This document shows, in pieces, positions 1 to 23,545 of a stretch of 34,309 nt of DNA; position 1 is the first letter of the stretch; each line of letters opens with the position of its first letter. A program made the position numbers and the translations under genes. This stretch comes from a virus. Taxonomy: Duplodnaviria > Heunggongvirae > Uroviricota > Caudoviricetes. Below the pieces are notes generated by a model. The model saw only the letters and a program-made list of their open reading frames with translations. It ran no database searches and was not told the origin of the DNA. The stretch lies in the IMG/VR virus record IMGVR_UViG_2872152978_000008; one strand, written 5' to 3'.

Positions 1-1209
1 TTACGGGGTAATGCCAACCGCTGCCGCCACTTTGTCGCCACTTGGCAGCGTTGCCAGAGGATTGAAACGGAGCGCCGTTTCCAGATGATCCGGTGCCAGA
101 TGTGCGTAACGCATAGTCATTTTTATATCGTGGTGTCCGAGAATTTTTTGTAAGGCCAGAATGTTTCCACCCGACATCATGAAGTGCGCCGCAAACGTAT
201 GGCGCAGAACGTGTGTGAGTTGACCGCGAGGGAGCACGATAGACGTTTTTTCCATCACGGATAAAAATTGAAAATAGCAGTCTGTGAAGAAATTGAACCC
301 ATCAAGCGCCATGATCTCTTCGTAAAGCTCTTTACTGATAGGGATGCTTCTGTTTTTCTTCCCCTTCGTTCTGACAAAGGTAATTCGGTATTTGGTCACC
401 TGTGAGCGGGTAAGATTTACGGCTTCACGCTAGCGTGCGCCTGTGCTTAAGCATATCTTAACTACCAGTGCCAGAATTGGGTCCTGACGTTTGCAATCAG
501 CCAGCAATTCAACAATCTGCTCATGGGTAAGCCATGCCATCTCTTTTTCTGCGATGGTGAATTTTCGCATGTTCTCCAGTGGGTTCGGATACGACCATTC
601 GCCCAGACGGGATAGTTCGCTAAAAACACTACTTAGATAGCTTTGCTCCAGGTTAATGGTGACCGGGCTTGCTCCTTTCTTCCATTTCTCGCTGAAGTAG
701 CTCTCGCCTGTCAGGCGTTTATCTCGATAGTGGGCAAACATTTTAGAGGTGAGATCGGTTGCAAGAGGATTGCCCAGAGCGTCAACCATCAACAGCAATT
801 TGTCATAGACATGCTGCCCAGCTGTCAGAGATTTACCATGTAGTTTGAACCATAGCTCAACCACGTCTTTCAGTGTTCGACGATCCACTGATTCACCCAG
901 CCAGGGCTTTGCTTCGGTTTCTTCCATCGTGTGGCGCTCAAAAGCCAGTGCTTCGCCTTTGGTGGCGAATTGTTTACGCACACGACGCCCACTTCGTCCG
1001 GCAGGGTAACATTCGCAAAGCCATTTCCCAGTGGTGAGTTTTCGTACTGCCATAAAAAATGCCCTCCAGTAGAGAGTATTTTTACTGTATGTATAACCAG
1101 TGTCAATGTATGAAATCCTACGACCATACATCTCACTGAAGCCATAATGAAGTTGGCTATTCTTTTTGCTATGTGAGCATGTAACTTTTGCGGTTAACCT
1201 GCGGCTCAT
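1..1209 (-). pseudogene. int: P2-family tyrosine integrase interrupted by an in-frame TAG at 430-432
   Basis: ORFs 430-1209 and 1-399 are in the same frame, separated only by TAG. Read-through gives LSTGAR*REAVNLTRSQV...GKKNR...HVLRHTF...MRYAHL, where P2 Int (recalled) has ARWSEAE, so TGG(W) became TAG. Catalytic R/H-x-x-R/Y residues lie downstream of the stop. Confidence 0.85.
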
Positions 1210-1241
1210 TTTTATTTTAGACGCAGATATAAAAGCAAAAG

Positions 1242-1433
1242 TTATCGTGAGTTTTTAGTACAGATTTTTTTGGATTTACTAATAGTTCCATCATTGCAAA
1301 CAAATTTTCCATCGGAGGTACAGTGAGAGACACCTCCCTTTTTCCCAGAACAAGGATAATTTTTAGCATAGGTAGTTAGTGGGCTTAATAACAAAGAGCA
1401 TGATAAAACCACAAAAAATACTTTACCAAGCAT
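1242..1433 (-). CDS. Small secreted Cys-rich basic peptide, hypothetical (possible moron)
   Basis: 63-aa ORF with strong SD (GGGAGGA) 4-5 nt before ATG. N-terminal hydrophobic signal-like segment [23 protein letters not shown], then ~40-aa Lys-rich mature part with 4 Cys. Sits in an AT-rich stretch between repressor and integrase, same strand. Confidence 0.5.
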
Positions 1434-1448
1434 AGTATCCTCCCGGTA

Positions 1449-2024
1449 TTATCTAACATATTTAACTGTTAAACTTATAATTTTACCAATTATTTCAATG
1501 TCTTCTATCTTACAGTCGAAGGCTCTGTTTCCACCCTCGACGAAGATTCTTCCACCGGGTAAACGAGTAATGTCACGGATCGTTACTTCGCCATCAATAC
1601 TTATTACCCATTTACCATCACGTATGTCATCAAATTCTTTATCACAAATAAATTCAGAATTGTTATCTGTGATGACAAAAGGTTTTTTAAACGTAGAGGG
1701 TAGAAATCCCTTATCAAAAATATAAAAACCGTCTTCACGCAAGGCACCATCAGATAATACATATTTAGCAACTTCCATAGTATTTGTATTACCTGAAGTT
1801 TGCTTTGAACCATGTCCGGTTGTGAGCCAATTAAGCGAGGTGCCCGTTTCAAGGGCGCACTGGATTACCCATTCTGCTGGGAATGAGTCACGCATGTAGC
1901 GTGTGGCGAGTGTACTTTTAGAGATTCCTAAATGATCGCACAACGCCTGTCGAGTCTTGAATCCATAAGCTTCTACCATGCGCTCTATGGCGCCTCGTCC
2001 GCCTTTCTCCAAATTCATGGTCAC
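1449..2024 (-). CDS. CI-type prophage immunity repressor
   Basis: 191-aa ORF with N-terminal HTH-like segment (TRQALCDHLGISKSTLATRYMR) and a C-terminal domain. Position between int and a divergent Apl/cII pair matches 186-type immunity region layout. Confidence 0.7.
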   Translation of the reverse strand: MTMNLEKGGRGAIERMVEAYGFKTRQALCDHLGISKSTLATRYMRDSFPAEWVIQCALETGTSLNWLTTGHGSKQTSGNTNTMEVAKYVLSDGALREDGFYIFDKGFLPSTFKKPFVITDNNSEFICDKEFDDIRDGKWVISIDGEVTIRDITRLPGGRIFVEGGNRAFDCKIEDIEIIGKIISLTVKYVR

Positions 2025-2143
2025 TCCAAGTGAACTTTTATCTTGATGATTTCACTGTGCGATCGTATGCTTATGGTGTTCACAAAATACAAACGATCCG
2101 TATTCGTCCTGATTAATCATCATTAAACGAGGAATGTTGCATC

Positions 2144-2365
2144 ATGAGACCTAACATTTCAATCACTCTTACCACGCCTCATGTGACTATTGAACGCTAT
2201 AGCGAGCTGACAGGGCTATCCATCGATACCATCAATGACATGTTGGCTGATGGACGCCTTATCCGTCACCGTCTGCGCAAAGATAAAAAACGCGAAAAAG
2301 TGATGATCAACATAGCAGCAATGACCGTTGATGCGCTTTCAGAATGCAATCTAAACCTTAATTAG
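2144..2365 (+). CDS. Apl/Cox-like small DNA-binding regulator or excisionase
   Basis: 73-aa basic ORF divergent from the repressor, with HTH-like segment ([23 protein letters not shown]). Ends with a TAG stop. Assigned by position and size. Confidence 0.5.
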
Positions 2366-2391: not shown

Positions 2392-2577
2392 TTGACCATG
2401 TTTGATTACCAAGTTTCCAAACATCCATATTTTGATGAAGCCTGTCGTGCATTTGCACTGCGCCACAATCTGGTGCAACTGGCAGAACGTGCAGGCATGA
2501 ATGTGCAGATTCTGCGGAACAAGCTGAACCCAGCTCAGCCTCATTTATTAACCGCACCAGAAATCTGGCTGCTTTGA
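2392..2577 (+). pseudogene. cII: CII-like regulator truncated after ~60 aa by IS911
   Basis: [59 protein letters not shown] resembles the N-terminus of 186 CII (~169 aa, recalled). Its TGA stop is the first three bases of the IS911 left inverted repeat. Confidence 0.65.
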
Positions 2578-2646
2578 AGTGGCACACTGAATTTGGCCAC
2601 CTGAACAGAGGTGATATGCTCACCTCAGAACAACACAGGTGCTCCA

Positions 2647-3815
<1,169 letters not shown>

Positions 3816-3857
3816 CCACTTCACGCCAGAGTTTTATTTGAGATCGCAAACAGGGAG

Positions 3858-4463
3858 GTGGCTTATTACAACATAAGGCAGGAGTTTAATTACTCAACTG
3901 AAATTACTGATTTCATGAAAGCGGTATATTTCCTGTATCTCAATCGTCACGGTTACCGTGGTTTATGTCGCTATAACAAGAGCGGGCATTTCAACATTCC
4001 CTACGGCAATTATAAAAATCCGTATTTCCCTGAAAAAGAAATTCGCGCATTTGCAGAAAAAGCCCAGCGAGCAACGTTTATCTGCGCCAGCTTTGATGAA
4101 ACGCTGGCGATGTTGAAGGCGGGGGATGTGGTGTATTGCGATCCACCGTATGACGGTACGTTTTCCGGCTATCACACTGATGGTTTCACTGAAGATGACC
4201 AGTATCACCTAGCATCCGTTCTTGAACATCGGTCATCAGAAGGACATCCGGTCATTGTTTCTAACAGTGACACATCCCTGATCCGTTCGCTGTATTGCAA
4301 TTTTACTCACCACTATATCAAGGTAAAACGCAGCATCGGTGTGGCAGCTGGCGAGGGTAAATCAGCAACAGAAATCATTGCTGTTTCCGGGCCGCGCTGC
4401 TGGGTGGGATTTGATTATTCGCGTGGCGTGGATAGTTCTGCCGTGTACGGAGTACGTGCATGA
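3858..4463 (+). pseudogene. Dam-like N6-adenine DNA methyltransferase, 5'-truncated fragment
   Basis: [35 protein letters not shown]...VVYCDPPY...HTDGF aligns by eye with the C-terminal ~2/3 of E. coli Dam (DPPY motif IV). The N-terminal AdoMet-binding region is missing; the fragment begins 34 bp after the IS911 right end. Confidence 0.75.
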
Positions 4464-5984
4464 GCCATGCCGATATGAACAACTGCTGCGGCTTTAACGA
4501 GGCTGCCGCAGCGTTCTCATGGAACAGCCCGAAAAAGGCCATTAACCCTTATCTGGACCCGGCGGAAGTTGCGCCGGTTTCTGCGCTTTCAAACCTGATC
4601 ACTCTGTACGCTGCCGATAACGAGCAGGAACAGTTGCGCCGCGAGGCACTGAGTGATCAGGTCTGGGAGCGTTATTTTTTTTATGAATCACGTGATCCTG
4701 TCCAGCACGAAATGGAGCAGGATAAGCTCATTAGCCGGGCAAAGCTGGCGCATGAGCAGCAGCGTTTTAATCCGGATATGGTCATTCTGGCGGACGTCAA
4801 CGCTCAGCCTTCCCATATCAGCAAGCCGCTGATGCAACGTATTGAATACTTCAGCAGCCTGGGCAGGCCAAAGGCTTATTCCCGCTATTTACGTGAGACG
4901 ATTAAGCCATGTCTGGAACGACTGGAGCATGTACGCGACAGCCAGCTATCTGCATCTTTTCGTTTTATGGCAAGCCATGTAGGGCTGGACGGCCTGCTGA
5001 TTCTGCCTGAAATGAGTCAGGATCAGGTGAAACGCCTGTCTACCCTTGTCGCTGCGCATATGAGCATGTGCCTTGATGCAGCTTGTGGTGATTTGTATGC
5101 CACCGATGACGTTAAGCCAGAAGAAATCCGCAAGACATGGGAAAAGGTGGCAGCGGAAACCCTGCGTCTGGATGTCATCCCGCCTGCGTTTGAGCAACTC
5201 CGTCGGAAAAGAAACCGCCGTAAACCCGTGCCCTATGAACTCATTCCGGGTTCGCTGGCGCGTATGTTGTGCGCCGACTGGTGGTACCGGAAATTATGGA
5301 AAATGCGTTGCGAATGGCGGGAAGAGCAGTTGCGTGCTGTCTGCCTGGTCAGCAAAAAAGCATCTCCCTATGTCAGCTATGAAGCCGTGATGCATAAACG
5401 TGAGCAGCGCCGCAAGTCATTGGAGTTTTTCCGTTCTCATGAACTGGTGAACGAAGAGGGCGACACGCTGGATATGGAAGACGTGGTAAACGCCAGCAGC
5501 AGCAACCCGGCGCACCGCCGCAATGAGATGATGGCCTGTGTTAAAGGTCTGGAGCTTATCGCGGAAATGCGCGGTGACTGCGCCGTTTTCTACACCATTA
5601 CCTGTCCGTCACGTTTCCATTCCACGCTCAATAACGGCAGACCAAACCCAACCTGGACAAATGCGACGGTAAGACAAAGCAGCGATTATCTGGTCGGCAT
5701 GTTTGCTGCATTTCGTAAGGCGATGCACAAAGCCGGGTTGCGCTGGTATGGCGTGCGGGTGGCTGAGCCGCATCATGACGGTACAGTTCACTGGCACCTG
5801 TTGTGTTTTATGCGCAAAAAAGACCGCCGCGCCATTACTGCATTGTTGCGTAAGTTTGCCATCCGTGAAGACCGCGAGGAACTGGGTAATAACACTGGTC
5901 CACGCTTTAAATATGAGCTGATAAACCCGCGCAAAGGAACGCCGACAAGCTACATCGCGAAATACATCAGTAAGAACATTGACG
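4460..5984 (+). pseudogene. A: Replication initiation gene A (rolling-circle nickase), N-terminal part, split by IS66-family insertion
   Basis: 513-aa ORF ending ...[12 protein letters not shown] at the IS66 junction; resembles P2/186 gpA. Confidence 0.85.
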
Positions 5985-6055
5985 GTAAGCGTACAGCCTG
6001 AACCGTCTGGTCAGAATCTGACGAATTAGACAAAGTGGTGTCCACCAAATAAGTA

Positions 6056-6457
6056 GTGGGAACCAAAGTGTCAGATATGCAGAAAAATGTGAATCCCGGC
6101 AGGCGAAAAGGCTGCCCTAATTATCCTCCCGAATTTAAACAGCAGCTCGTTGCTGCCTCCTGTGAACCCGGGATATCCATCTCAAAACTTGCTCTTGAAA
6201 ATGGCATTAACGCCAATCTGTTGTTCAAATGGCGACAACAATGGCGCGAGGGAAAGCTGCTATTACCTTCTTCAGAGAGCCCCCAGCTACTTCCTGTGAC
6301 TCTCGATGCAGCTGCCGAACAGCCAGAATCGCTCGCAGAGGATCCGGAAACCCTCAGTATCAGCTGTGAGGTAACGTTCCGGCACGGGACGCTCCGCTTC
6401 AATGGCAATGTCAGCGAAAAGCTCCTGACTCTGCTGATACAGGAACTGAAGCGATGA
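6056..6457 (+). CDS. IS66-family accessory protein TnpA (orf1)
   Basis: First of three co-oriented ORFs inside the IS; true start may be the internal Met at ~6077. Confidence 0.7.
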   Translation: MGTKVSDMQKNVNPGRRKGCPNYPPEFKQQLVAASCEPGISISKLALENGINANLLFKWRQQWREGKLLLPSSESPQLLPVTLDAAAEQPESLAEDPETLSISCEVTFRHGTLRFNGNVSEKLLTLLIQELKR

Positions 6458-6801
6458 TCCCGTTACCTTCCGGGACCAAAATTTGGCTGGTTGCCGGTAT
6501 CACCGATATGAGAAATGGCTTCAACGGCCTGGCGGCAAAGGTGCAGACGACGCTGAAAGACGATCCGATGTCAGGTCACGTTTTTATCTTCCGTGGGCGT
6601 AATGGCAGTCAGGTAAAGCTCCTCTGGTCTACCGGCGATGGACTGTGTCTGCTGACCAAACGGCTGGAGCGCGGCCGCTTCGCCTGGCCGTCAGCCCGGG
6701 ATGGCAAAGTGTTCCTCACACCGGCACAGCTGGCGATGCTCCTTGAAGGTATCGACTGGCGGCAGCCTAAAAGACTGCTTACGTCCCTGACTATGTTGTA
6801 A
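6454..6801 (+). CDS. IS66-family TnpB (orf2)
   Basis: 115-aa ORF overlapping orf1 stop by 4 nt (ATGA), typical IS66 tnpB arrangement. Confidence 0.75.
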   Translation: MIPLPSGTKIWLVAGITDMRNGFNGLAAKVQTTLKDDPMSGHVFIFRGRNGSQVKLLWSTGDGLCLLTKRLERGRFAWPSARDGKVFLTPAQLAMLLEGIDWRQPKRLLTSLTML

Positions 6802-6849
6802 GCCTCTTTATCCTGGTCGACGCTGAATGAGCCTGGTAATATACCCGGT

Positions 6850-8387
6850 ATGAGCAGCTCACTTCCTGACGATATCAATGCACTGAAACGTCTCCTTGCC
6901 GAACAGGAGGCGCTGAACCGTGCCCTGCTGGAAAAGCTGAACGAGCGTGAACGCGAAATAGACCATCTGCAGGCACAGCTGGATAAGCTGCGCCGGATGA
7001 ACTTCGGCAGCCGCTCCGAAAAAGTCTCCGTCGTATCGCACAGATGGAAGCTGACCTGAAGGCACTTCAGAAAGAAAGTGATACCCTTACCGGTCGGGTT
7101 GACGACCCGGCCGTGCAGCGCCCGCTGCGTCAAACCCGCACCCGCAAACCGTTCCCCGAATCACTCCCCCGCGATGAAAAACGGCTGCTGCCGGCAGCGT
7201 CATGCTGCCCGGAATGTGGAGGCTCACTGAGCTATCCGGGTGAGGATGCCGCCGAACAGCTGGAGTTGATGCGCAGCGTCTTCCGGGTTATCCGGACTGT
7301 ACGTGAAAAGCATGCCTGTACTCAGTGCGATGCCATCGTGCAGGCCCCCGCGCCTTCACGGCCCATCGAGCGGGGTATCGCAGGACCGGGGCTGCTGGCC
7401 CGCGTGCTGATCTCAAAGTATGCAGAGCACACCCCGCTGTACCGCCAGTCTGAAATGTACGGCCGCCAGGGCGTGGAGCTGAGTCGTTCACTGCTGTCGG
7501 GCTGGGTGGATGCATGCTGCCGGCTACTGTCACCGCTGGAAGAAGCGCTTCAGGATTATGTGCTGACTGACGGTAAGCTCCATGCTGATGACACGCCTGT
7601 CCCGGTGCTGTTGCCAGGCAATAAGAAAACGAAGACCGGGCGGTTATGGACCTACGTTCGTGACGACCGTAACGCCGGGTCAACGCTGGCGCCGGCGGTG
7701 TGGTTCGCTTACAGCCCGGACAGAAAAGGCATCCATCTGCAGACCCATCTTGCGGGGTTCAGTGGTGTACTGCAGGCGGATGCATACGCCGGGTTCAACG
7801 AGCTGTACCGGGATGGCCGGATAACGGAAGCCGCCTGTTGGGCTCACGCCCGCCGTAAAATCCACGATGTGCACGTTCGCACCCCGTCAGCCCTGACGGA
7901 GGAAGCGCTGAAACGGATCGGCGAACTGTACGCCATCGAGGCAGAGATAAGGGGAATGACGGCGGAGCAGCGCCTTGCCGAACGTCAGTTGAAAACGAAA
8001 CCGCTGCTGAAATCCCTGGAAAGCTGGCTGCGTGAAAAGATGAAAACCCTGTCGCGACACTCAGAACTGGCGAAAGCGTTCGCATACGCCCTGAACCAGT
8101 GGCCGGCGCTGACGTACTATGCAGATGATGGCTGGGCTGAGGCGGACAATAATATCGCTGAAAATGCGTTGCGGATGGTCAGTCTGGGCCGCAAAAACTA
8201 CCTGTTCTTCGGTTCGGATCATGGAGGAGAGCGGGGAGCGCTGCTGTACAGCCTGATCGGGACGTGCAAACTGAACGGAGTGGAGCCAGAAAGCTACCTC
8301 CGCTATGTACTTGACGTCATAGCCGACTGGCCGATAAACCGGGTCGGCGAACTGCTCCCCTGGCGCGTAGCACTGCCGACTGAATAA
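6850..8387 (+). pseudogene. IS66-family transposase TnpC carrying a frameshift near 7027-7035
   Basis: ORF 6850-7059 (MSSSLPDDINALKRLLAEQE...) and ORF 7044-8387 overlap in different frames. Adding one base in GTCTCCGTCGT restores a continuous reading ...[18 protein letters not shown].... Confidence 0.75.
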
Positions 8388-8424
8388 CACATCCCCGTCA
8401 ATACGGTTCTTGCTGCACGCTTAC

Positions 8425-10068: not shown

Positions 10069-10167
10069 CGTAGATCATGCAGGTGCATGAAAACCACTAC
10101 ATAAAGCGGGCAGGTAATGCTGCCAACTTACTGATTTAGTGTATGATGGTGATTTTAAGGTGCTTGC

Positions 10168-10443
10168 GTGGCTTCCATTTCCATCAGATGTCCTTCCTGC
10201 TCCGCTACTGAAGGCGTGGTGCGTAACGGCAAAAGCACTGCCGGACATCAGCGCTATCTCTGCTCTCATTGCCGTAAAACATGGCAACTACAGTTCACTT
10301 ACACCGCCTCTCAGCCCGGTACGCACCAGAAAATCATTGATATGGCCATGAATGGCGTCGGATGTCGCGCCAGTGCACGCATTATGGGCGTTGGCCTCAA
10401 CACGGTTTTACGTCACTTAAAAAACTCAGGCCGCAGTCGGTAA
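10168..10443 (+). CDS. insA: IS1 InsA
   Basis: [42 protein letters not shown]... is the canonical IS1 InsA. Confidence 0.9.
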
Positions 10444-10865
10444 CCTCGCGCATACAACCGGGCAGTGATGTGATTGTCTGCGCTGAAATGGACGAACAGT
10501 GGGGCTACGTCGGTGCTAAATCACGTCAGCGCTGGCTGTTTTACGCGTATGACAGGATACGGAGGACGGTTGTGGCGCACGTCTTCGGTGAACGCACTCT
10601 GACCACACTGGAGCGTCTTCTGAGCCTGCTGTCGGCCTTTGAGGTCGTGGTATGGATGACGGATGGCTGGCCGCTGTATGAATCACGCCTGAAGGGAAAG
10701 CTGCACGTTATCAGCAAGCGTTACACTCAGCGCATTGAGCGACATAATCTGAATCTGAGACAACATCTGGCAAGGCTGGGACGGAAGTCACTGTCGTTCT
10801 CAAAATCGGTGGAGCTGCATGACAAGGTCATCGGGCATTATCTGAACATAAAACACTATCAGTAA
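10362..10865 (+). CDS. insB: IS1 InsB (expressed as InsAB' by -1 frameshift)
   Basis: -1 frame relative to insA; canonical IS1 InsB sequence. Confidence 0.85.
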
Positions 10866-10889
10866 GTTGGAGTCATTACCAGCGGGCAG

Positions 10890-21884: not shown

Positions 21885-22278
21885 ATTGCAGAAGGTGGAC
21901 GACTGGCTGAGTGCATTATTGGCGAATCTGGAGCCAGCCGCAAGAAGCCGCATGATGCGCCAGCTGGCGCAGGAACTGCGCCGGACACAGCAGCAGAACA
22001 TCAGGATGCAGCGCAATCCAGATGGCAGCAGTTATGAGCCGCGCAGGGTAACAGCACGCAGCAAAAAGGGGCGCATCAAACGTCAGATGTTTACAAAGCT
22101 GCGCACCACAAAATACCTGAAAACTGCAGCCAGCGCCGATTCTGCCAGCGTACAGTTTGAAGGTAGGGTGCAGCGCATTGCCCGTATTCACCATTACGGC
22201 TTGAGTGATCGCGTCAGTCGAAAAGGTATTTATACCATCTATGCGAAAAGGCAGTTATTAGGTTTTAATGTCCGGTAA
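21877..22278 (+). pseudogene. S: Tail completion protein gpS, 3'-truncated by IS1
   Basis: ORF runs into the IS1 left end and stops on a TAA inside the IS1 terminus (...RQLLGFNVR*). Confidence 0.7.
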
Positions 22279-22328
22279 TGCTGCCAACTTACTGATTTAG
22301 TGTATGATGGTGATTTTAAGGTGCTTGC

Positions 22329-22604
22329 GTGGCTTCCATTTCCATCAGATGTCCTTCCTGCTCCGCTACTGAAGGCGTGGTGCGTAACGGCAAAAGCACT
22401 GCCGGACATCAGCGCTATCTCTGCTCTCATTGCCGTAAAACATGGCAACTACAGTTCACTTACACCGCCTCTCAGCCCGGTACGCACCAGAAAATCATTG
22501 ATATGGCCATGAATGGCGTCGGATGTCGCGCCAGTGCACGCATTATGGGCGTTGGCCTCAACACGGTTTTACGTCACTTAAAAAACTCAGGCCGCAGTCG
22601 GTAA
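22329..22604 (+). CDS. insA: IS1 InsA (copy 2)
   Basis: Identical translation to copy 1 InsA. Confidence 0.9.
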
Positions 22605-23026
22605 CCTCGCGCATACAACCGGGCAGTGATGTGATTGTCTGCGCTGAAATGGACGAACAGTGGGGCTACGTCGGTGCTAAATCACGTCAGCGCTGGCTGT
22701 TTTACGCGTATGACAGGATACGGAGGACGGTTGTGGCGCACGTCTTCGGTGAACGCACTCTGGCCACACTGGAGCGTCTTCTGAGCCTGCTGTCGGCCTT
22801 TGAGGTCGTGGTATGGATGACGGATGGCTGGCCGCTGTATGAATCACGCCTGAAGGGAAAGCTGCACGTTATCAGCAAGCGTTACACTCAGCGCATTGAG
22901 CGACATAATCTGAATCTGAGACAACATCTGGCAAGGCTGGGACGGAAGTCACTGTCGTTCTCAAAATCGGTGGAGCTGCATGACAAGGTCATCGGGCATT
23001 ATCTGAACATAAAACACTATCAGTAA
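22523..23026 (+). CDS. insB: IS1 InsB (copy 2)
   Basis: As copy 1, with a T-to-A substitution (TLTTLERL to TLATLERL). Confidence 0.85.
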
Positions 23027-23036
23027 GTTGGCAGCA

Positions 23037-23519
23037 TTACCATGCAGCCCTCACAATATAGTTAAAAGCGACATTTCGTGGGCGTGTTTCATTCGCACCT
23101 GCAGGTTTAGTCGTTGCCGCAACAACACCACCCTCTGTAATAGCCGGGTTGGGAATTGGGTAATTATCGAAGTCAATGGCCGGAGACAGGGGCGTGATTT
23201 GTTTTAAAATCGTGGTGCCTGTAAAACTTTCCAGAGTCTGGTCGTTAGTTCGTGAAGTCCAGATTCCCCAATAGTGGTTATGACTGACAATCGCACCGTC
23301 CTGAAGCGTTAATAATCCCCTTCCGTTATCCACTCCACGTCCGTCATCCCAGCCACGAATAAACTCACCGCGTAAATCAGGCAATTTATTTGTCGGGTAA
23401 GCCTTTGCCAGTTCCGGGTATTCTTCAGCAGAAAAAGCCGCACCATTGCATTTCAGCCAGCCTGTCGGCGGAGTGGCTGAAGGCCACGGAACAGGCACAC
23501 CAACAGGTAATGCAGAGCC
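23037..23519 (-). pseudogene. Orphan tail-fibre variable C-terminal segment, clipped by IS1
   Basis: ...GWLKCNGAAFSAEEYPELAKAYP...NVAFNYIVRAAW is a typical tail-fibre C-terminal variable domain. It has no constant N-terminal part, lies inverted next to an invertase, and its 3' end runs into IS1. Confidence 0.6.
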
Positions 23520-23545
23520 TTCTCCCAAACCAACGTTTAAGAAAA
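23520..23545. other. Candidate 26-bp invertase crossover site (gix/cix/pix-like) TTCTCCCAAACCAACGTTTAAGAAAA
   Basis: Imperfect dyad resembling recalled Hin/Gin/Cin recombination sites, located at the 5' end of the inverted fibre segment and 55 bp upstream of the invertase gene. Confidence 0.45.

What the first reader, a model, noticed from the sequence alone, without database searches (positions are those of the whole stretch)
1210..1450. Small Cys-rich, Lys-rich secreted peptide encoded between repressor and integrase
A 63-aa ORF with a strong Shine-Dalgarno and signal-peptide-like N-terminus lies in a markedly AT-rich insertion, on the same strand as and just downstream of the repressor gene. 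It would be expected to be expressed in the lysogen. Four cysteines in a ~40-aa basic mature peptide suggest a disulfide-stabilised exported product (toxin, bacteriocin-like or surface-modifying), a possible lysogenic-conversion factor.
Basis: inference. Interest (0 to 1): 0.55.

Follow-up and report, generated by a model that had tools for sequence, protein, structure and literature searches.

The report
Prophage YdcA-family periplasmic mini-protein gene
The small ORF is a real, strongly conserved gene for an exported, cysteine-rich 40-residue protein of the catalogued but uncharacterised YdcA family. It sits directly behind the repressor gene in many P2/186-like prophages, so lysogens probably make it, but what it does is still unknown.

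Summary
Window 1242-1433 (minus strand) is a 63-codon gene with a GGGAGGA ribosome-binding site. It starts 15 nt after the cI stop codon and lies 188 nt upstream of int.

It matches NCBIfam NF007463 above the curated cutoff, PHROG 6000 and Pfam PF27300 (YdcA). RefSeq already labels the identical protein "YdcA family protein". About 632 of 5426 complete E. coli genomes carry it, almost always together with this cI. Selection on it is strongly purifying (dN/dS about 0.05-0.1).

The product has a Sec/signal-peptidase-I type leader and no conserved lipobox. The mature part is 40 aa, net charge +7, with four invariant cysteines.

Phage 186 has cI abutting int, so this gene is an addition to the lysogenic operon. 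The order cI→YdcA→(cargo)→int recurs in E. coli, Klebsiella, Yersinia and Haemophilus HP2-type prophages.

The domain also occurs fused to three families of exported nucleases. It resembles the disulfide-pinned lobes of Legionella T4SS protein Dis2.

Function is unknown. My best guess is a lysogen-expressed periplasmic protective factor, analogous but not homologous to Vibrio phage K139 Glo. Nothing supports a toxin or bacteriocin. This is a member of a known family and of moderate interest.

The parts
1242..1433 (-). ydcA-like CDS (63 codons plus TAA stop at 1242-1244)
   Evidence: ORF list. NCBIfam NF007463 E 7.7e-34, above cutoff. PHROG 6000. Precomputed Pfam PF27300:YdcA on homologues. PGAP name 'YdcA family protein'. 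Purifying selection.
1365..1433 (-). Codons 1-23: predicted Sec signal peptide [23 protein letters not shown], with cleavage predicted after Ala23
   Evidence: Sequence features and family statistics: Ala at -1 in 260 of 272 members, K/R in the n-region in 263 of 272, lipobox-like motif in 5 of 272. Ala23 is invariant in alignment A1. No SignalP run was available, so this is inferred.
1245..1364 (-). Codons 24-63: mature YdcA domain [40 protein letters not shown] (4 Cys, net +7)
   Evidence: Invariant or near-invariant P27, C28, K32, G33, G34, H37, C38, F44, C46, D48, G49, S52, S54, K55, C58. AF2 core pLDDT 85-92. Foldseek top hits are Dis2.
1438..1444 (-). Shine-Dalgarno GGGAGGA, 4 nt before the ATG
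   Evidence: Read directly. Conserved in 77 of 79 IMG/VR copies.
1449..2018 (-). cI repressor (189 aa from the ATG at 2016-2018). Its stop codon lies 15 nt before the ydcA-like ATG
   Evidence: Pfam Phage_CI_repr 2.8e-33 plus Phage_CI_C 2.7e-29. 31% identity to 186 CI and 32% to HP2 cI. PGAP annotation in relatives.
1054..1241 (.). 188-nt spacer between the ydcA-like gene and int. It contains a hairpin directly after the stop (1182-1244), a promoter-like TTGACA-17-AAAAAT (1106-1078, minus strand) and the int RBS. No minus-strand intrinsic terminator was found
   Evidence: scan; inverted repeat; z = -4.5; no covariation. The first ~60 nt upstream of int (1054-1113) are shared with same-int phages.
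1..1053 (-). P2/186-type integrase, a pseudogene here: TGG to TAG at 430-432 (C431T relative to the UPEC-245U prophage)
   Evidence: The ORF is split at 430. Pfam Int_N plus Phage_integrase on the two halves. Base difference list.
2019..2143 (.). cI-apl intergenic control region, where the face-to-face lytic and lysogenic promoters are expected by analogy with 186
   Evidence: 186 record annotation: pL/pE drive cI then int. K139: PL drives cI, orf2, glo, int. The simple promoter scan found no site above threshold here, so the promoter is inferred, not shown.
2144..2365 (+). apl/cox-like excisionase-repressor, transcribed divergently
   Evidence: PHROG 575 E 6e-31.

Best explanation
**What it is (shown or nearly shown).** This is a prophage-borne member of the YdcA family. 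It is the second cistron of the lysogenic operon of a degraded 186-like (Peduoviridae) prophage, in the order cI, then 15 nt, then ydcA-like, then 188 nt, then int.

**How the product is made (inferred from sequence and homologues).**
- The operon's transcripts (pL for maintenance and pE for establishment, by analogy with 186) should cover the gene. No terminator follows cI, and a strong SD sits right after the cI stop. Every lysogen should therefore make the 63-aa precursor.
- The precursor is exported by Sec and cut by signal peptidase I after Ala23.
- The 40-aa basic domain is oxidised to two disulfides, giving a soluble periplasmic protein of about 4.3 kDa.

**What it does (hypothesis).** It acts in the envelope as a protective accessory factor for the lysogen. 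The most likely form is superinfection exclusion or blocking of DNA entry at the periplasmic stage. The conserved Lys/Ser/Gly-rich surface would bind an anionic ligand (incoming DNA) or an outer-membrane-proximal protein complex. This would work like the soluble periplasmic exclusion protein Glo, which Vibrio phage K139 encodes in the same cI-int interval, but the two are not homologous.

**Confidence split.** About 0.9 for the identity and about 0.7 for lysogen expression and periplasmic location. About 0.3 for an exclusion or defence role. The overall figure given is a compromise between these.
For: **Identity.**
- NCBIfam, PHROG and Pfam matches.
- The identical protein is in RefSeq as 'YdcA family protein'.

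**Selection.**
- dN/dS about 0.05-0.1.
- 79 of 79 located IMG/VR copies intact; 19 of 21 variable sites at codon position 3.

**Operon placement.**
- 15-nt gap after cI with an SD, and no minus-strand terminator before int.
- In HP2-type prophages the cI stop overlaps the YdcA start (TAATG).
- 186 has cI abutting int within one annotated pL/pE operon.

**Linkage to cI.**
- 632 E. coli genomes carry the gene and 648 carry this cI.
- The order cI→YdcA→(KAP NTPase)→int is seen in a second E. coli allele, in Klebsiella, in Yersinia and in HP2-like prophages, although the cI proteins are only about 31-32% identical.

**Export and disulfides.**
- Leader statistics.
- The solved Dis2 lobes are disulfide-pinned and sit by the outer membrane.

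**Protective role.**
- The same cI-int slot in sibling prophages holds PD-Lambda-1 (3e-120) and PDC-S20 (2e-171).
- The literature describes a cI-int defence hotspot in K139-like phages (PMC9122126).
- K139 Glo is annotated as periplasmic and involved in exclusion.

**Nucleic-acid or envelope targeting.**
- The domain follows a signal peptide and precedes SNase, Endonuclease_NS or PLD-nuclease domains.
- One such fusion lies in a P2-like phage contig.
- Mean net charge is +3.4 per 30-residue domain.
- Periplasmic nucleases carried by mobile elements are known to degrade incoming DNA (PMC12378983).
Against: - There are no experimental data on this protein or on any YdcA-family member's mechanism.
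- It has no PADLOC hit.
- Chromosomal, non-prophage copies exist. E. coli K-12 ydcA has an RpoS-type promoter and an acid/3-HP phenotype, and a Moraxella bovoculi copy sits among housekeeping genes. This points as much to an envelope or stress role as to exclusion.
- 186, ESSI2_ev129 and same-int phages lack the gene, and an IS truncates it in one strain. It is therefore dispensable.
- Dis2 is itself dispensable and binds proteins (DotK, DotC, DotD), not DNA.
- The lysogenic promoter was not detected by the simple scan.
- The signal peptide call is heuristic.
Confidence: 0.4

Rival explanations
1. Host-fitness (lysogenic conversion) factor. The periplasmic mini-protein improves envelope or stress tolerance of the lysogen, doing the same job as the chromosomal ydcA, and has no role against other phages.
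For: - Deleting ydcA in E. coli W sensitised cells to 300 mM 3-hydroxypropionate, and the authors cite acid-induced expression under YdcI (PMC7642389).
- There is an RpoS-holoenzyme promoter between rydC and ydcA, and the gene is up-regulated in stationary or persister-enriched cultures.
- Core-genome copies exist in Moraxella.
- Acinetobacter prophages carry it in a tail-region cargo island next to YedD and LprI envelope proteins.
Against: - The K-12 phenotypes are weak and indirect, and no mechanism is known.
- The tight conservation of cI→YdcA adjacency across Peduoviridae whose cI proteins are only ~31-32% identical, and the defence cargo sharing the slot, fit a phage-centred role better.
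- The nuclease fusions are not explained.
Confidence: 0.25
2. The YdcA domain is simply a generic periplasmic anchoring or oligomerisation module that docks onto outer-membrane lipoprotein complexes, as Dis2 docks on DotC/DotD/DotK. The free-standing prophage copy modulates some host envelope machine (secretion system, pilus or porin complex), with consequences that need not involve phages.
For: - Dis2 similarity in sequence and fold, and its protein contacts near the outer membrane.
- Tandem and fused architectures, including a VasL (T6SS) fusion.
- UniRef labels some members 'Conjugal transfer protein'.
Against: - The Dis2 homology is borderline.
- No partner gene is conserved next to YdcA other than cI.
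- E. coli hosts of these prophages have no Dot/Icm system.
Confidence: 0.15
3. Secreted toxin, bacteriocin or microcin released by the lysogen.
For: The peptide is small, basic and cysteine-rich with an N-terminal leader.
Against: - The leader is a Sec/SPase-I type rather than a double-glycine leader.
- There is no immunity, modification or export gene nearby: the neighbours are cI and int.
- Single-copy chromosomal homologues without partners are widespread.
- There is no significant match to any toxin family.
Confidence: 0.03
4. Outer-membrane lipoprotein that masks a phage receptor (Cor/Llp-like), using the VLSC motif at residues 9-12 as a lipobox.
For: V9-L10-S11-C12 loosely fits a lipobox. 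One Yersinia homologue is labelled 'Lipoprotein' in UniRef.
Against: - Cys12 is not conserved. Only 5 of 272 family members have any lipobox-like motif before the domain, whereas Ala at the SPase-I site is near-universal.
- Cleavage at Cys12 would leave a hydrophobic stretch in the mature protein.
Confidence: 0.03
5. A chance ORF, or a spacer whose real role is cis-regulatory (RNA structure controlling int expression).
For: The spacer RNA after the stop folds better than shuffles (z = -4.5).
Against: - Clear coding signature and HMM matches.
- The hairpin shows no compensatory changes, and substitutions break pairs.
- No Rfam match.
Confidence: 0.01

Closest known systems
E. coli K-12 YdcA (b1419) and the YdcA family (Pfam PF27300, NCBIfam NF007462-4 / PRK10040, PHROG 6000)
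   Same: Same family by curated HMM. Same architecture: a Sec leader plus one ~35-aa domain with the motif PCSGKKGG(V/I)SHC...F(V/I)CNDG(S/T)xSxSKKxC and four Cys. About 51% identity to K-12 YdcA. K-12 YdcA is likewise described as a predicted periplasmic 57-aa protein of unknown function (PMC11340327).
   Different: This copy is prophage-borne and is the second gene of the cI-int lysogenic operon. K-12 ydcA is a stand-alone chromosomal gene next to rydC/cybB with its own RpoS-type promoter.
Glo of Vibrio cholerae phage K139 (Peduoviridae)
   Same: Glo is encoded between cI and int in the PL lysogenic operon of a P2-family phage. It has an N-terminal signal peptide and is annotated and cited as a soluble periplasmic protein involved in phage exclusion.
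   Different: No sequence relationship: hhalign probability 2.4%, with only the leaders aligning. Glo is 137 aa and not Cys-rich. An exclusion activity has not been tested for YdcA-like proteins.
Dis2 (Lpg0823) of the Legionella pneumophila Dot/Icm T4SS outer-membrane cap (PDB 7MUC/7MUD)
   Same: It is the only solved structure that resembles the model. Profile hit E 6.7e-4 with the motif CS-KMGGI-YC...VCNNG..S. Foldseek top two hits, probability 0.87-0.93, 38-39% identity. 50% identity over 26 aa to both repeats of the tandem YdcA protein P0081. Its lobes are disulfide-pinned, periplasmic and near the outer membrane.
Defence cargo of the cI-int / int-primase hotspot in P2-like prophages (PD-Lambda-1, PDC-S20 KAP NTPase)
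   Same: Same genomic slot, same orientation, in prophages with the same integrase and attachment site near rcdA. This hotspot is described in PMC9122126 and PMC13586616.
   Different: Those are large cytoplasmic ATPase/nuclease-type proteins that vary between prophages. The YdcA-like gene is tiny, exported, has no PADLOC match, and stays next to cI while the other cargo is inserted downstream of it.
Periplasmic nucleases of mobile elements that degrade incoming DNA (IdeA/SxnA of Vibrio ICEs, Dns of Campylobacter CJIE1)
   Same: They are carried by mobile elements, exported, and act on incoming DNA in the periplasm (PMC12378983). Some YdcA-domain proteins are fused to SNase, Endonuclease_NS or PLD nuclease domains, one of them in a P2-like phage contig.
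   Different: The window protein has no catalytic domain. Any DNA-related role would have to be by binding or blocking, and this is untested.

Membership tests
YdcA family (NCBIfam NF007463 / Pfam PF27300 / PHROG 6000) | Match to the curated family model above its cutoff | tested here: met
   NF007463: 115.3 bits against a cutoff of 93, E 7.7e-34, residues 5-63 on model positions 1-58 of 58. PHROG 6000 E 9.2e-34. Homologues and the cluster representative carry precomputed PF27300. PF27300 is absent from the local Pfam copy, so the direct Pfam scan was empty.
YdcA family (NCBIfam NF007463 / Pfam PF27300 / PHROG 6000) | Four conserved cysteines and the PCSGKKGG(V/I)SHC...FVCNDG.xSxSKKxC motif in a ~35-aa domain | tested here: met
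   All motif residues are present. C28, C38, C46 and C58 are invariant or at least 90% conserved in alignments of 29 and 47 sequences.
YdcA family (NCBIfam NF007463 / Pfam PF27300 / PHROG 6000) | N-terminal cleavable Sec signal peptide (periplasmic product) | tested here: inconclusive
   Sequence features fit, and the family shows Ala at -1 in 260 of 272 members. No dedicated predictor (SignalP/LipoP) and no experiment were available.
Lysogen-expressed accessory gene (moron) of a temperate phage | Located in a prophage, and absent from some close relatives that are otherwise collinear | tested here: met
   The window is collinear with a complete P2/186-like prophage. 186, ESSI2_ev129, vB_EcoM-813R9 and 4LV2017 lack the gene at this position.
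Lysogen-expressed accessory gene (moron) of a temperate phage | Own promoter and terminator (autonomous transcription unit) | tested here: not met
   No minus-strand promoter-like site between cI and the ORF, and no terminator after it. It is embedded in the cI-int operon instead.
Lysogen-expressed accessory gene (moron) of a temperate phage | Transcribed in the lysogen | not testable with these tools
   Inferred from the 15-nt cI-ORF gap, and from the annotated pL/pE operons of 186 and the PL operon of K139.
Glo-type periplasmic superinfection-exclusion proteins (K139) | Gene between cI and int in the lysogenic operon, with a soluble periplasmic product | tested here: met
   The position is met. 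The periplasmic location is predicted only.
Glo-type periplasmic superinfection-exclusion proteins (K139) | Sequence homology to Glo | tested here: not met
   hhalign probability 2.4%, with only the signal peptides aligning.
Glo-type periplasmic superinfection-exclusion proteins (K139) | Excludes superinfecting phage after adsorption | not testable with these tools
   Needs plating and DNA-entry assays.
Known anti-phage defence systems (PADLOC-DB v2) | Match to a defence-protein model | tested here: not met
   0 families for the ORF. Neighbouring-slot proteins from sibling prophages hit PD-Lambda-1 and PDC-S20 strongly.
Bacterial lipoproteins (Cor/Llp/Bor-type prophage envelope proteins) | Conserved lipobox [LVI][ASTVI][GAS]C at the end of the leader | tested here: not met
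   VLSC at residues 9-12 is specific to this allele. 5 of 272 family members have a lipobox-like motif.
Bacteriocins / microcins | Adjacent immunity and export or maturation genes, and a dedicated leader | tested here: not met
   The neighbours are cI and int only. The leader is Sec-type. No toxin family match.
Dis2 (Lpg0823) T4SS component | Two disulfide-linked lobes, and association with Dot/Icm genes or complex | tested here: not met
   The window protein has a single domain in a prophage context. The domain-level resemblance is only borderline to probable.

The most novel reading that the evidence does not exclude
The cI-coupled YdcA mini-protein is a widespread, so far unrecognised periplasmic superinfection-exclusion or DNA-entry-blocking factor of P2/186/HP2-type prophages.

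On this reading the YdcA domain is a general periplasmic module that targets DNA or the outer-membrane-proximal envelope. That would explain three things at once:
- its fusion to three unrelated families of exported nucleases;
- its presence as the two lobes of Legionella T4SS protein Dis2;
- the existence of orphan E. coli ydcA, which would be a domesticated copy.
Probability: 0.2. Interest if true: 0.65.

Novelty: new member of a known kind. Interest (0 to 1): 0.35.

Why it matters
If the lysogen really makes this protein, about one in nine sequenced E. coli strains, including BL21(DE3), carry a phage-supplied periplasmic mini-protein of unknown function, tied to the immunity repressor.

Finding its target would give a function to the orphan gene ydcA and to Pfam PF27300. 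It could add a very small, exported type of prophage protection to a slot otherwise filled by large cytoplasmic defence proteins. It could also explain the 'species-specific' Dis2 subunit of the Legionella secretion system.

As it stands, this is a correctly spotted but already catalogued gene of unknown function.

Tried and rejected
1. **Direct Pfam scan of the ORF.** It gave only a sub-threshold GULLO2-like hit. The local Pfam copy lacks PF27300.
2. **DUF3761 idea.** I recalled that the motif might be a circular permutation of DUF3761. Scanning 52 domain sequences against Pfam at E ≤ 10 showed no consistent family, so I dropped it.
3. **Nucleotide search of the phage collection.** It found only the 58 nt next to int. 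The protein-level search was needed.
5. **Domain-only profile against PDB.** The Dis2 hit weakens to E 0.078, level with LDL-receptor class A modules (E 0.016-0.05). I treat the LDLa hits as cysteine-pattern noise.
6. **Hairpin after the stop codon.** It is thermodynamically unusual but has no covariation, and substitutions break pairs. There is no Rfam hit. I do not claim it as functional.
7. **Promoter scan.** It did not recover the lysogenic promoter in 2019-2143. The operon model therefore rests on analogy with 186 and K139.
8. **IMG/VR locus scan.** It returned only near-identical E. coli copies among the best 80. It gave conservation statistics but no diversity.
9. **Contexts of the PLD and Endonuclease_NS fusions.** These were uninformative.
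10. **Nesper et al. 1999 (K139 Glo).** The paper is not held in the library. The properties of Glo are taken from the GenBank annotation and from citing papers.
Full report
**1. The observation**

The flagged interval contains one credible ORF: window 1242..1433 on the minus strand, ATG start, 63 aa. Read on the coding strand, the context is ...GTT AGA TAA TACCGGGAGGATACT ATG CTT GGT....

- The TAA is the stop of the repressor gene cI (1449-2018).
- A GGGAGGA Shine-Dalgarno (1438-1444) follows at once.
- The ORF starts 15 nt after the cI stop.
- It ends 188 nt before the start of the integrase gene (1-1053). All three genes are on the minus strand.

The product is [23 protein letters not shown]|[40 protein letters not shown].

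- The leader has a basic residue, a 12-residue hydrophobic core and T-Y-A at -3 to -1.
- The predicted mature peptide is 40 aa, 4.26 kDa, pI 9.6, with 9 K/R against 2 D/E, and four Cys.

The low-GC tract (0.29-0.41) runs from about 1050 to 1800 and includes the C-terminal half of cI. Similarity to phages with the same integrase stops at about 1113. So the ORF is part of an AT-rich immunity module rather than a discrete insertion.

**2. It is a real gene**

- The protein matches NCBIfam NF007463 (PRK10040.1-2) at E 7.7e-34, 115 bits against a curated cutoff of 93. It matches PHROG 6000 at E 9e-34.
- Homologues carry the precomputed Pfam family PF27300, named YdcA. That family is too new for the local Pfam copy, which explains the empty direct scan.
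- The exact sequence is in the public collection, in a 90%-identity cluster of 355 members. RefSeq annotates it as 'hypothetical protein' or 'YdcA family protein'.
- The ORF region is found in 632 of 5426 complete E. coli genomes, and this cI in 648. BL21(DE3) is among them.
- Between alleles that differ at about 5-7% of nucleotides, synonymous changes dominate. For example, window against L007 gives 10 of 42.8 synonymous sites changed against 3 of 146 non-synonymous. In the mature part the figures are 7 of 25.8 against 1 of 94.
- Among the 80 best IMG/VR loci, my start-codon pattern located the gene in 79 (it missed L088). All 79 are intact 63-aa ORFs. Of 21 variable sites, 19 are third codon positions and 18 are silent. 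The SD is kept in 77 of 79.

**3. The genomic setting**

The window is collinear with a complete ~34-kb P2/186-like prophage, integrated between ybjL and rcdA in E. coli UPEC-245U (99.6-99.8% identity in the shared blocks). The copy in the window is degraded:

- int carries a TGG to TAG change at 430-432;
- an IS3-type element (2575-3823) replaces about 1.8 kb, from the 3' part of cII to the 5' part of dam;
- an IS66-family element (5986-8424) interrupts the replication gene;
- an IS1 lies at 10115-10880.

cI and the YdcA-like gene are intact.

Phage 186 has an annotated operon in which pL (maintenance) and CII-activated pE (establishment) drive cI, int and orf69 up to a terminator. There cI and int overlap by one base, and nothing lies between them. 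In the window I found no minus-strand terminator between cI and int. The gene therefore looks like an extra cistron in the lysogenic operon. This step is inferred: the simple scan did not find the promoter itself, and no expression data were available.

**4. The cI-int interval in relatives**

- Phages with the same integrase carry other things in this slot. vB_EcoM-813R9 has a 558-aa protein that matches PD-Lambda-1 at 3e-120. Klebsiella phage 4LV2017 has a 349-aa unknown. ESSI2_ev129 has nothing.
- Some E. coli strains have cI→YdcA-like→KAP NTPase→int. That NTPase matches PADLOC PDC-S20 at 2e-171.
- The literature already describes a defence hotspot between cI and int in K139-like Vibrio phages (PMC9122126). 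It also places about 8% of P2 defence systems between int and the primase (PMC13586616).
- The YdcA-like gene behaves differently from this variable cargo. It stays directly after cI, and other cargo is added downstream of it.
- The order cI→YdcA→(cargo)→int recurs widely:
  - a second E. coli allele with a different leader (70% identity);
  - Klebsiella and Yersinia;
  - HP2-type prophages from metagenomes, where the cI stop overlaps the YdcA start;
  - the reference genomes of Haemophilus phages HP2 and S2, where the 60-aa ORF is present but not annotated.
- The window's cI is only 31% identical to 186 CI and 32% identical to HP2 cI. The YdcA domains of the window and HP2 are about 73% identical.
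- The family also occurs in the tail-region cargo islands of Acinetobacter and Moraxella prophages, and as an ordinary chromosomal gene (Moraxella bovoculi; E. coli K-12 ydcA).

**5. The protein family**

- An exhaustive profile search found 443 clusters (at 50% identity) with E ≤ 1e-3. They come mostly from Gamma- and Betaproteobacteria (names).
- The typical member is 55-65 aa: a variable leader plus an extremely conserved domain, N-x-P-C-S-G-K-K-G-G-[VI]-S-H-C-x(2,4)-G-K-F-[VI]-C-N-D-G-[ST]-x-S-x-S-K-K-x-C.
- Ala occupies the predicted -1 position in 260 of 272 members, and lipobox-like motifs are rare at 5 of 272. My heuristic favours Ala, but Ala23 is also invariant in the alignment.
- The domain is basic on average, at +3.4 per 30 residues.
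- Some members are tandem repeats of two or three domains.
- In others the domain follows the leader and precedes one of the following:
  - a Staphylococcal-nuclease domain (P0120, E 4.8e-24);
  - a DNA/RNA non-specific endonuclease (P0192, 8e-33; P0184, 6e-24);
  - a PLD-type domain (P0189, 5e-19);
  - a VasL domain (P0117).
- The precomputed annotations confirm the PF27300 plus nuclease architectures. The SNase fusion lies in a P2-like phage contig.

**6. Structure**

- AlphaFold2 with a 47-sequence alignment gives mean pLDDT 75.7, with 85-92 over the domain: a short helical turn and a beta-hairpin.
- A profile search of PDB sequences finds one significant hit, chain AN of 7MUC/7MUD at E 6.7e-4. 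This is Dis2 (Lpg0823) of the Legionella Dot/Icm T4SS. The alignment is CCS-KMGGINYC..GRLVCNNG, with a second weaker repeat.
- Foldseek independently ranks the same chain first and second (probability 0.87-0.93, 38-39% identity, E 0.13).
- The Dis2 fragment is 50% identical over 26 residues to both repeats of the tandem family member P0081.
- Dis2 contacts DotK, DotC and DotD and is dispensable (PMC12716638).
- It is the best available support for an exported, disulfide-bonded fold.

**7. What is known about YdcA**

- K-12 YdcA is described as a 57-aa predicted periplasmic protein of unknown function next to rydC (PMC11340327).
- An RpoS-holoenzyme promoter lies between rydC and ydcA (PMC5493296).
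- Deleting ydcA in E. coli W sensitised cells to 3-hydroxypropionate (PMC7642389).
- I found no mechanistic study.

**8. Most likely mechanism**

- Shown: family membership, coding constraint, operon-like placement, and recurrent linkage to cI.
- Inferred:
  - co-transcription with cI in lysogens;
  - Sec export and cleavage after Ala23;
  - two disulfides and a soluble periplasmic location.
- Hypothesis: a protective role for the lysogen at the periplasmic stage of infection or DNA entry. The reasons are:
  - (a) the position matches that of glo in K139, whose product is annotated and cited as a soluble periplasmic exclusion protein, although Glo is not homologous;
  - (b) the slot is otherwise used for defence genes;
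  - (c) the domain is attached to three unrelated exported nucleases, and periplasmic nucleases of mobile elements are known to destroy incoming DNA (PMC12378983);
  - (d) the conserved basic surface fits an anionic ligand.
- I put this at about 0.3.
- The main rival is a host-fitness or stress role shared with chromosomal ydcA, at about 0.25.
- Next is a generic envelope-docking role in the manner of Dis2, at about 0.15.
- Toxin or bacteriocin, lipoprotein, and chance-ORF readings are each unlikely (section on rivals).

**9. Novelty and verdict**

The protein is already catalogued and annotated, so it is a member of a known but uncharacterised family. In its setting it is one more lysogenic-operon accessory gene of a P2-family prophage.

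Three points seem under-appreciated:
- the conserved cI→YdcA pairing;
- the unannotated copy in HP2 and S2;
- the nuclease fusions and the probable relationship to Dis2.

I score interest as moderate to low (0.35). The finding was correctly spotted and is testable, but it is not surprising to a specialist, and its function remains open.

Noticed in passing
window 430-432 (int, minus strand): The integrase is a pseudogene. A single C to T change at 431, relative to the UPEC-245U prophage, turns a TGG codon into TAG and splits int into 1-399 and 430-1053.
   Followed up: yes
window 2575-3823: An IS3-type element (OrfA/OrfB transposase) truncates cII at about 2574. About 1.8 kb of the reference prophage is lost with it (the rest of cII, fil, DUF5347, DUF2732, traR-like and the 5' part of dam).
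   Followed up: partly
window 5986-8424 and 10115-10880: An IS66-family element (TnpA/TnpB/TnpC-like ORFs) interrupts the gpA replication-endonuclease gene, and an IS1 (InsA/InsB) lies further on. With the other lesions this makes a heavily IS-ridden, immobile prophage remnant, as is typical of Shigella-like genomes. A 100% identical partial protein is labelled Shigella flexneri.
   Followed up: partly
window 22274-23533: Relative to the reference prophage, about 770 bp (22274-23041) have no counterpart, and 23042-23533 align in inverted orientation. This is in the tail-fibre region next to a recombinase gene and is probably the invertible host-range segment.
   Followed up: no
[not shown]
   Followed up: yes
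window 1182-1244 (minus-strand RNA): A long AT-rich hairpin starts at the ORF stop codon. The 197-nt spacer folds at -52.7 kcal/mol (z = -4.5 against shuffles). It has no U-tract and no compensatory changes among six alleles, and several substitutions break pairs. Its function, if any, is unknown.
   Followed up: partly
PDB 7MUC/7MUD chain AN (Legionella Dis2, Lpg0823) against family alignment A2: The two lobes of Dis2 are described in the literature as Legionella-specific with no structural relatives. They look like a tandem YdcA-family domain pair (profile E 6.7e-4; Foldseek top hit; 50% identity to both repeats of P0081).
   Followed up: partly
P0120, P0192, P0184, P0189, P0117 (family members); L031 5001-5669: The YdcA domain is fused, directly after a signal peptide, to SNase, Endonuclease_NS, PLD-type and VasL domains. 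The SNase fusion is in a P2-like phage contig between the tail genes and the early region.
   Followed up: partly
P0056, P0057, P0059-P0061, P0079, P0140 (105-190 aa family members): A second, unrelated-looking Cys-rich basic C-terminal module (C-x-C-x5-C-x-G-P-R-G-G-x-[YF]-C-x5-G-x-K-x-Y) follows the YdcA domain in a Betaproteobacteria-type subgroup. It was not identified.
   Followed up: no
L003 3636-5312; L011 142-1473; L016-L019 and L117-L118 6198-7529 / 4198-5529: In sibling prophages the cI-int interval carries PD-Lambda-1 (DUF4041 + T5orf172) or a KAP NTPase (PADLOC PDC-S20). The KAP NTPase is always placed after the YdcA-like gene.
   Followed up: yes
L029 25571-28085 (reference prophage; the corresponding part of the window was not examined): The reference prophage carries an AAA-family ATPase plus HNH endonuclease pair in the known gpA-gpQ defence hotspot, and a DUF5677 gene among the baseplate genes.
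   Followed up: no
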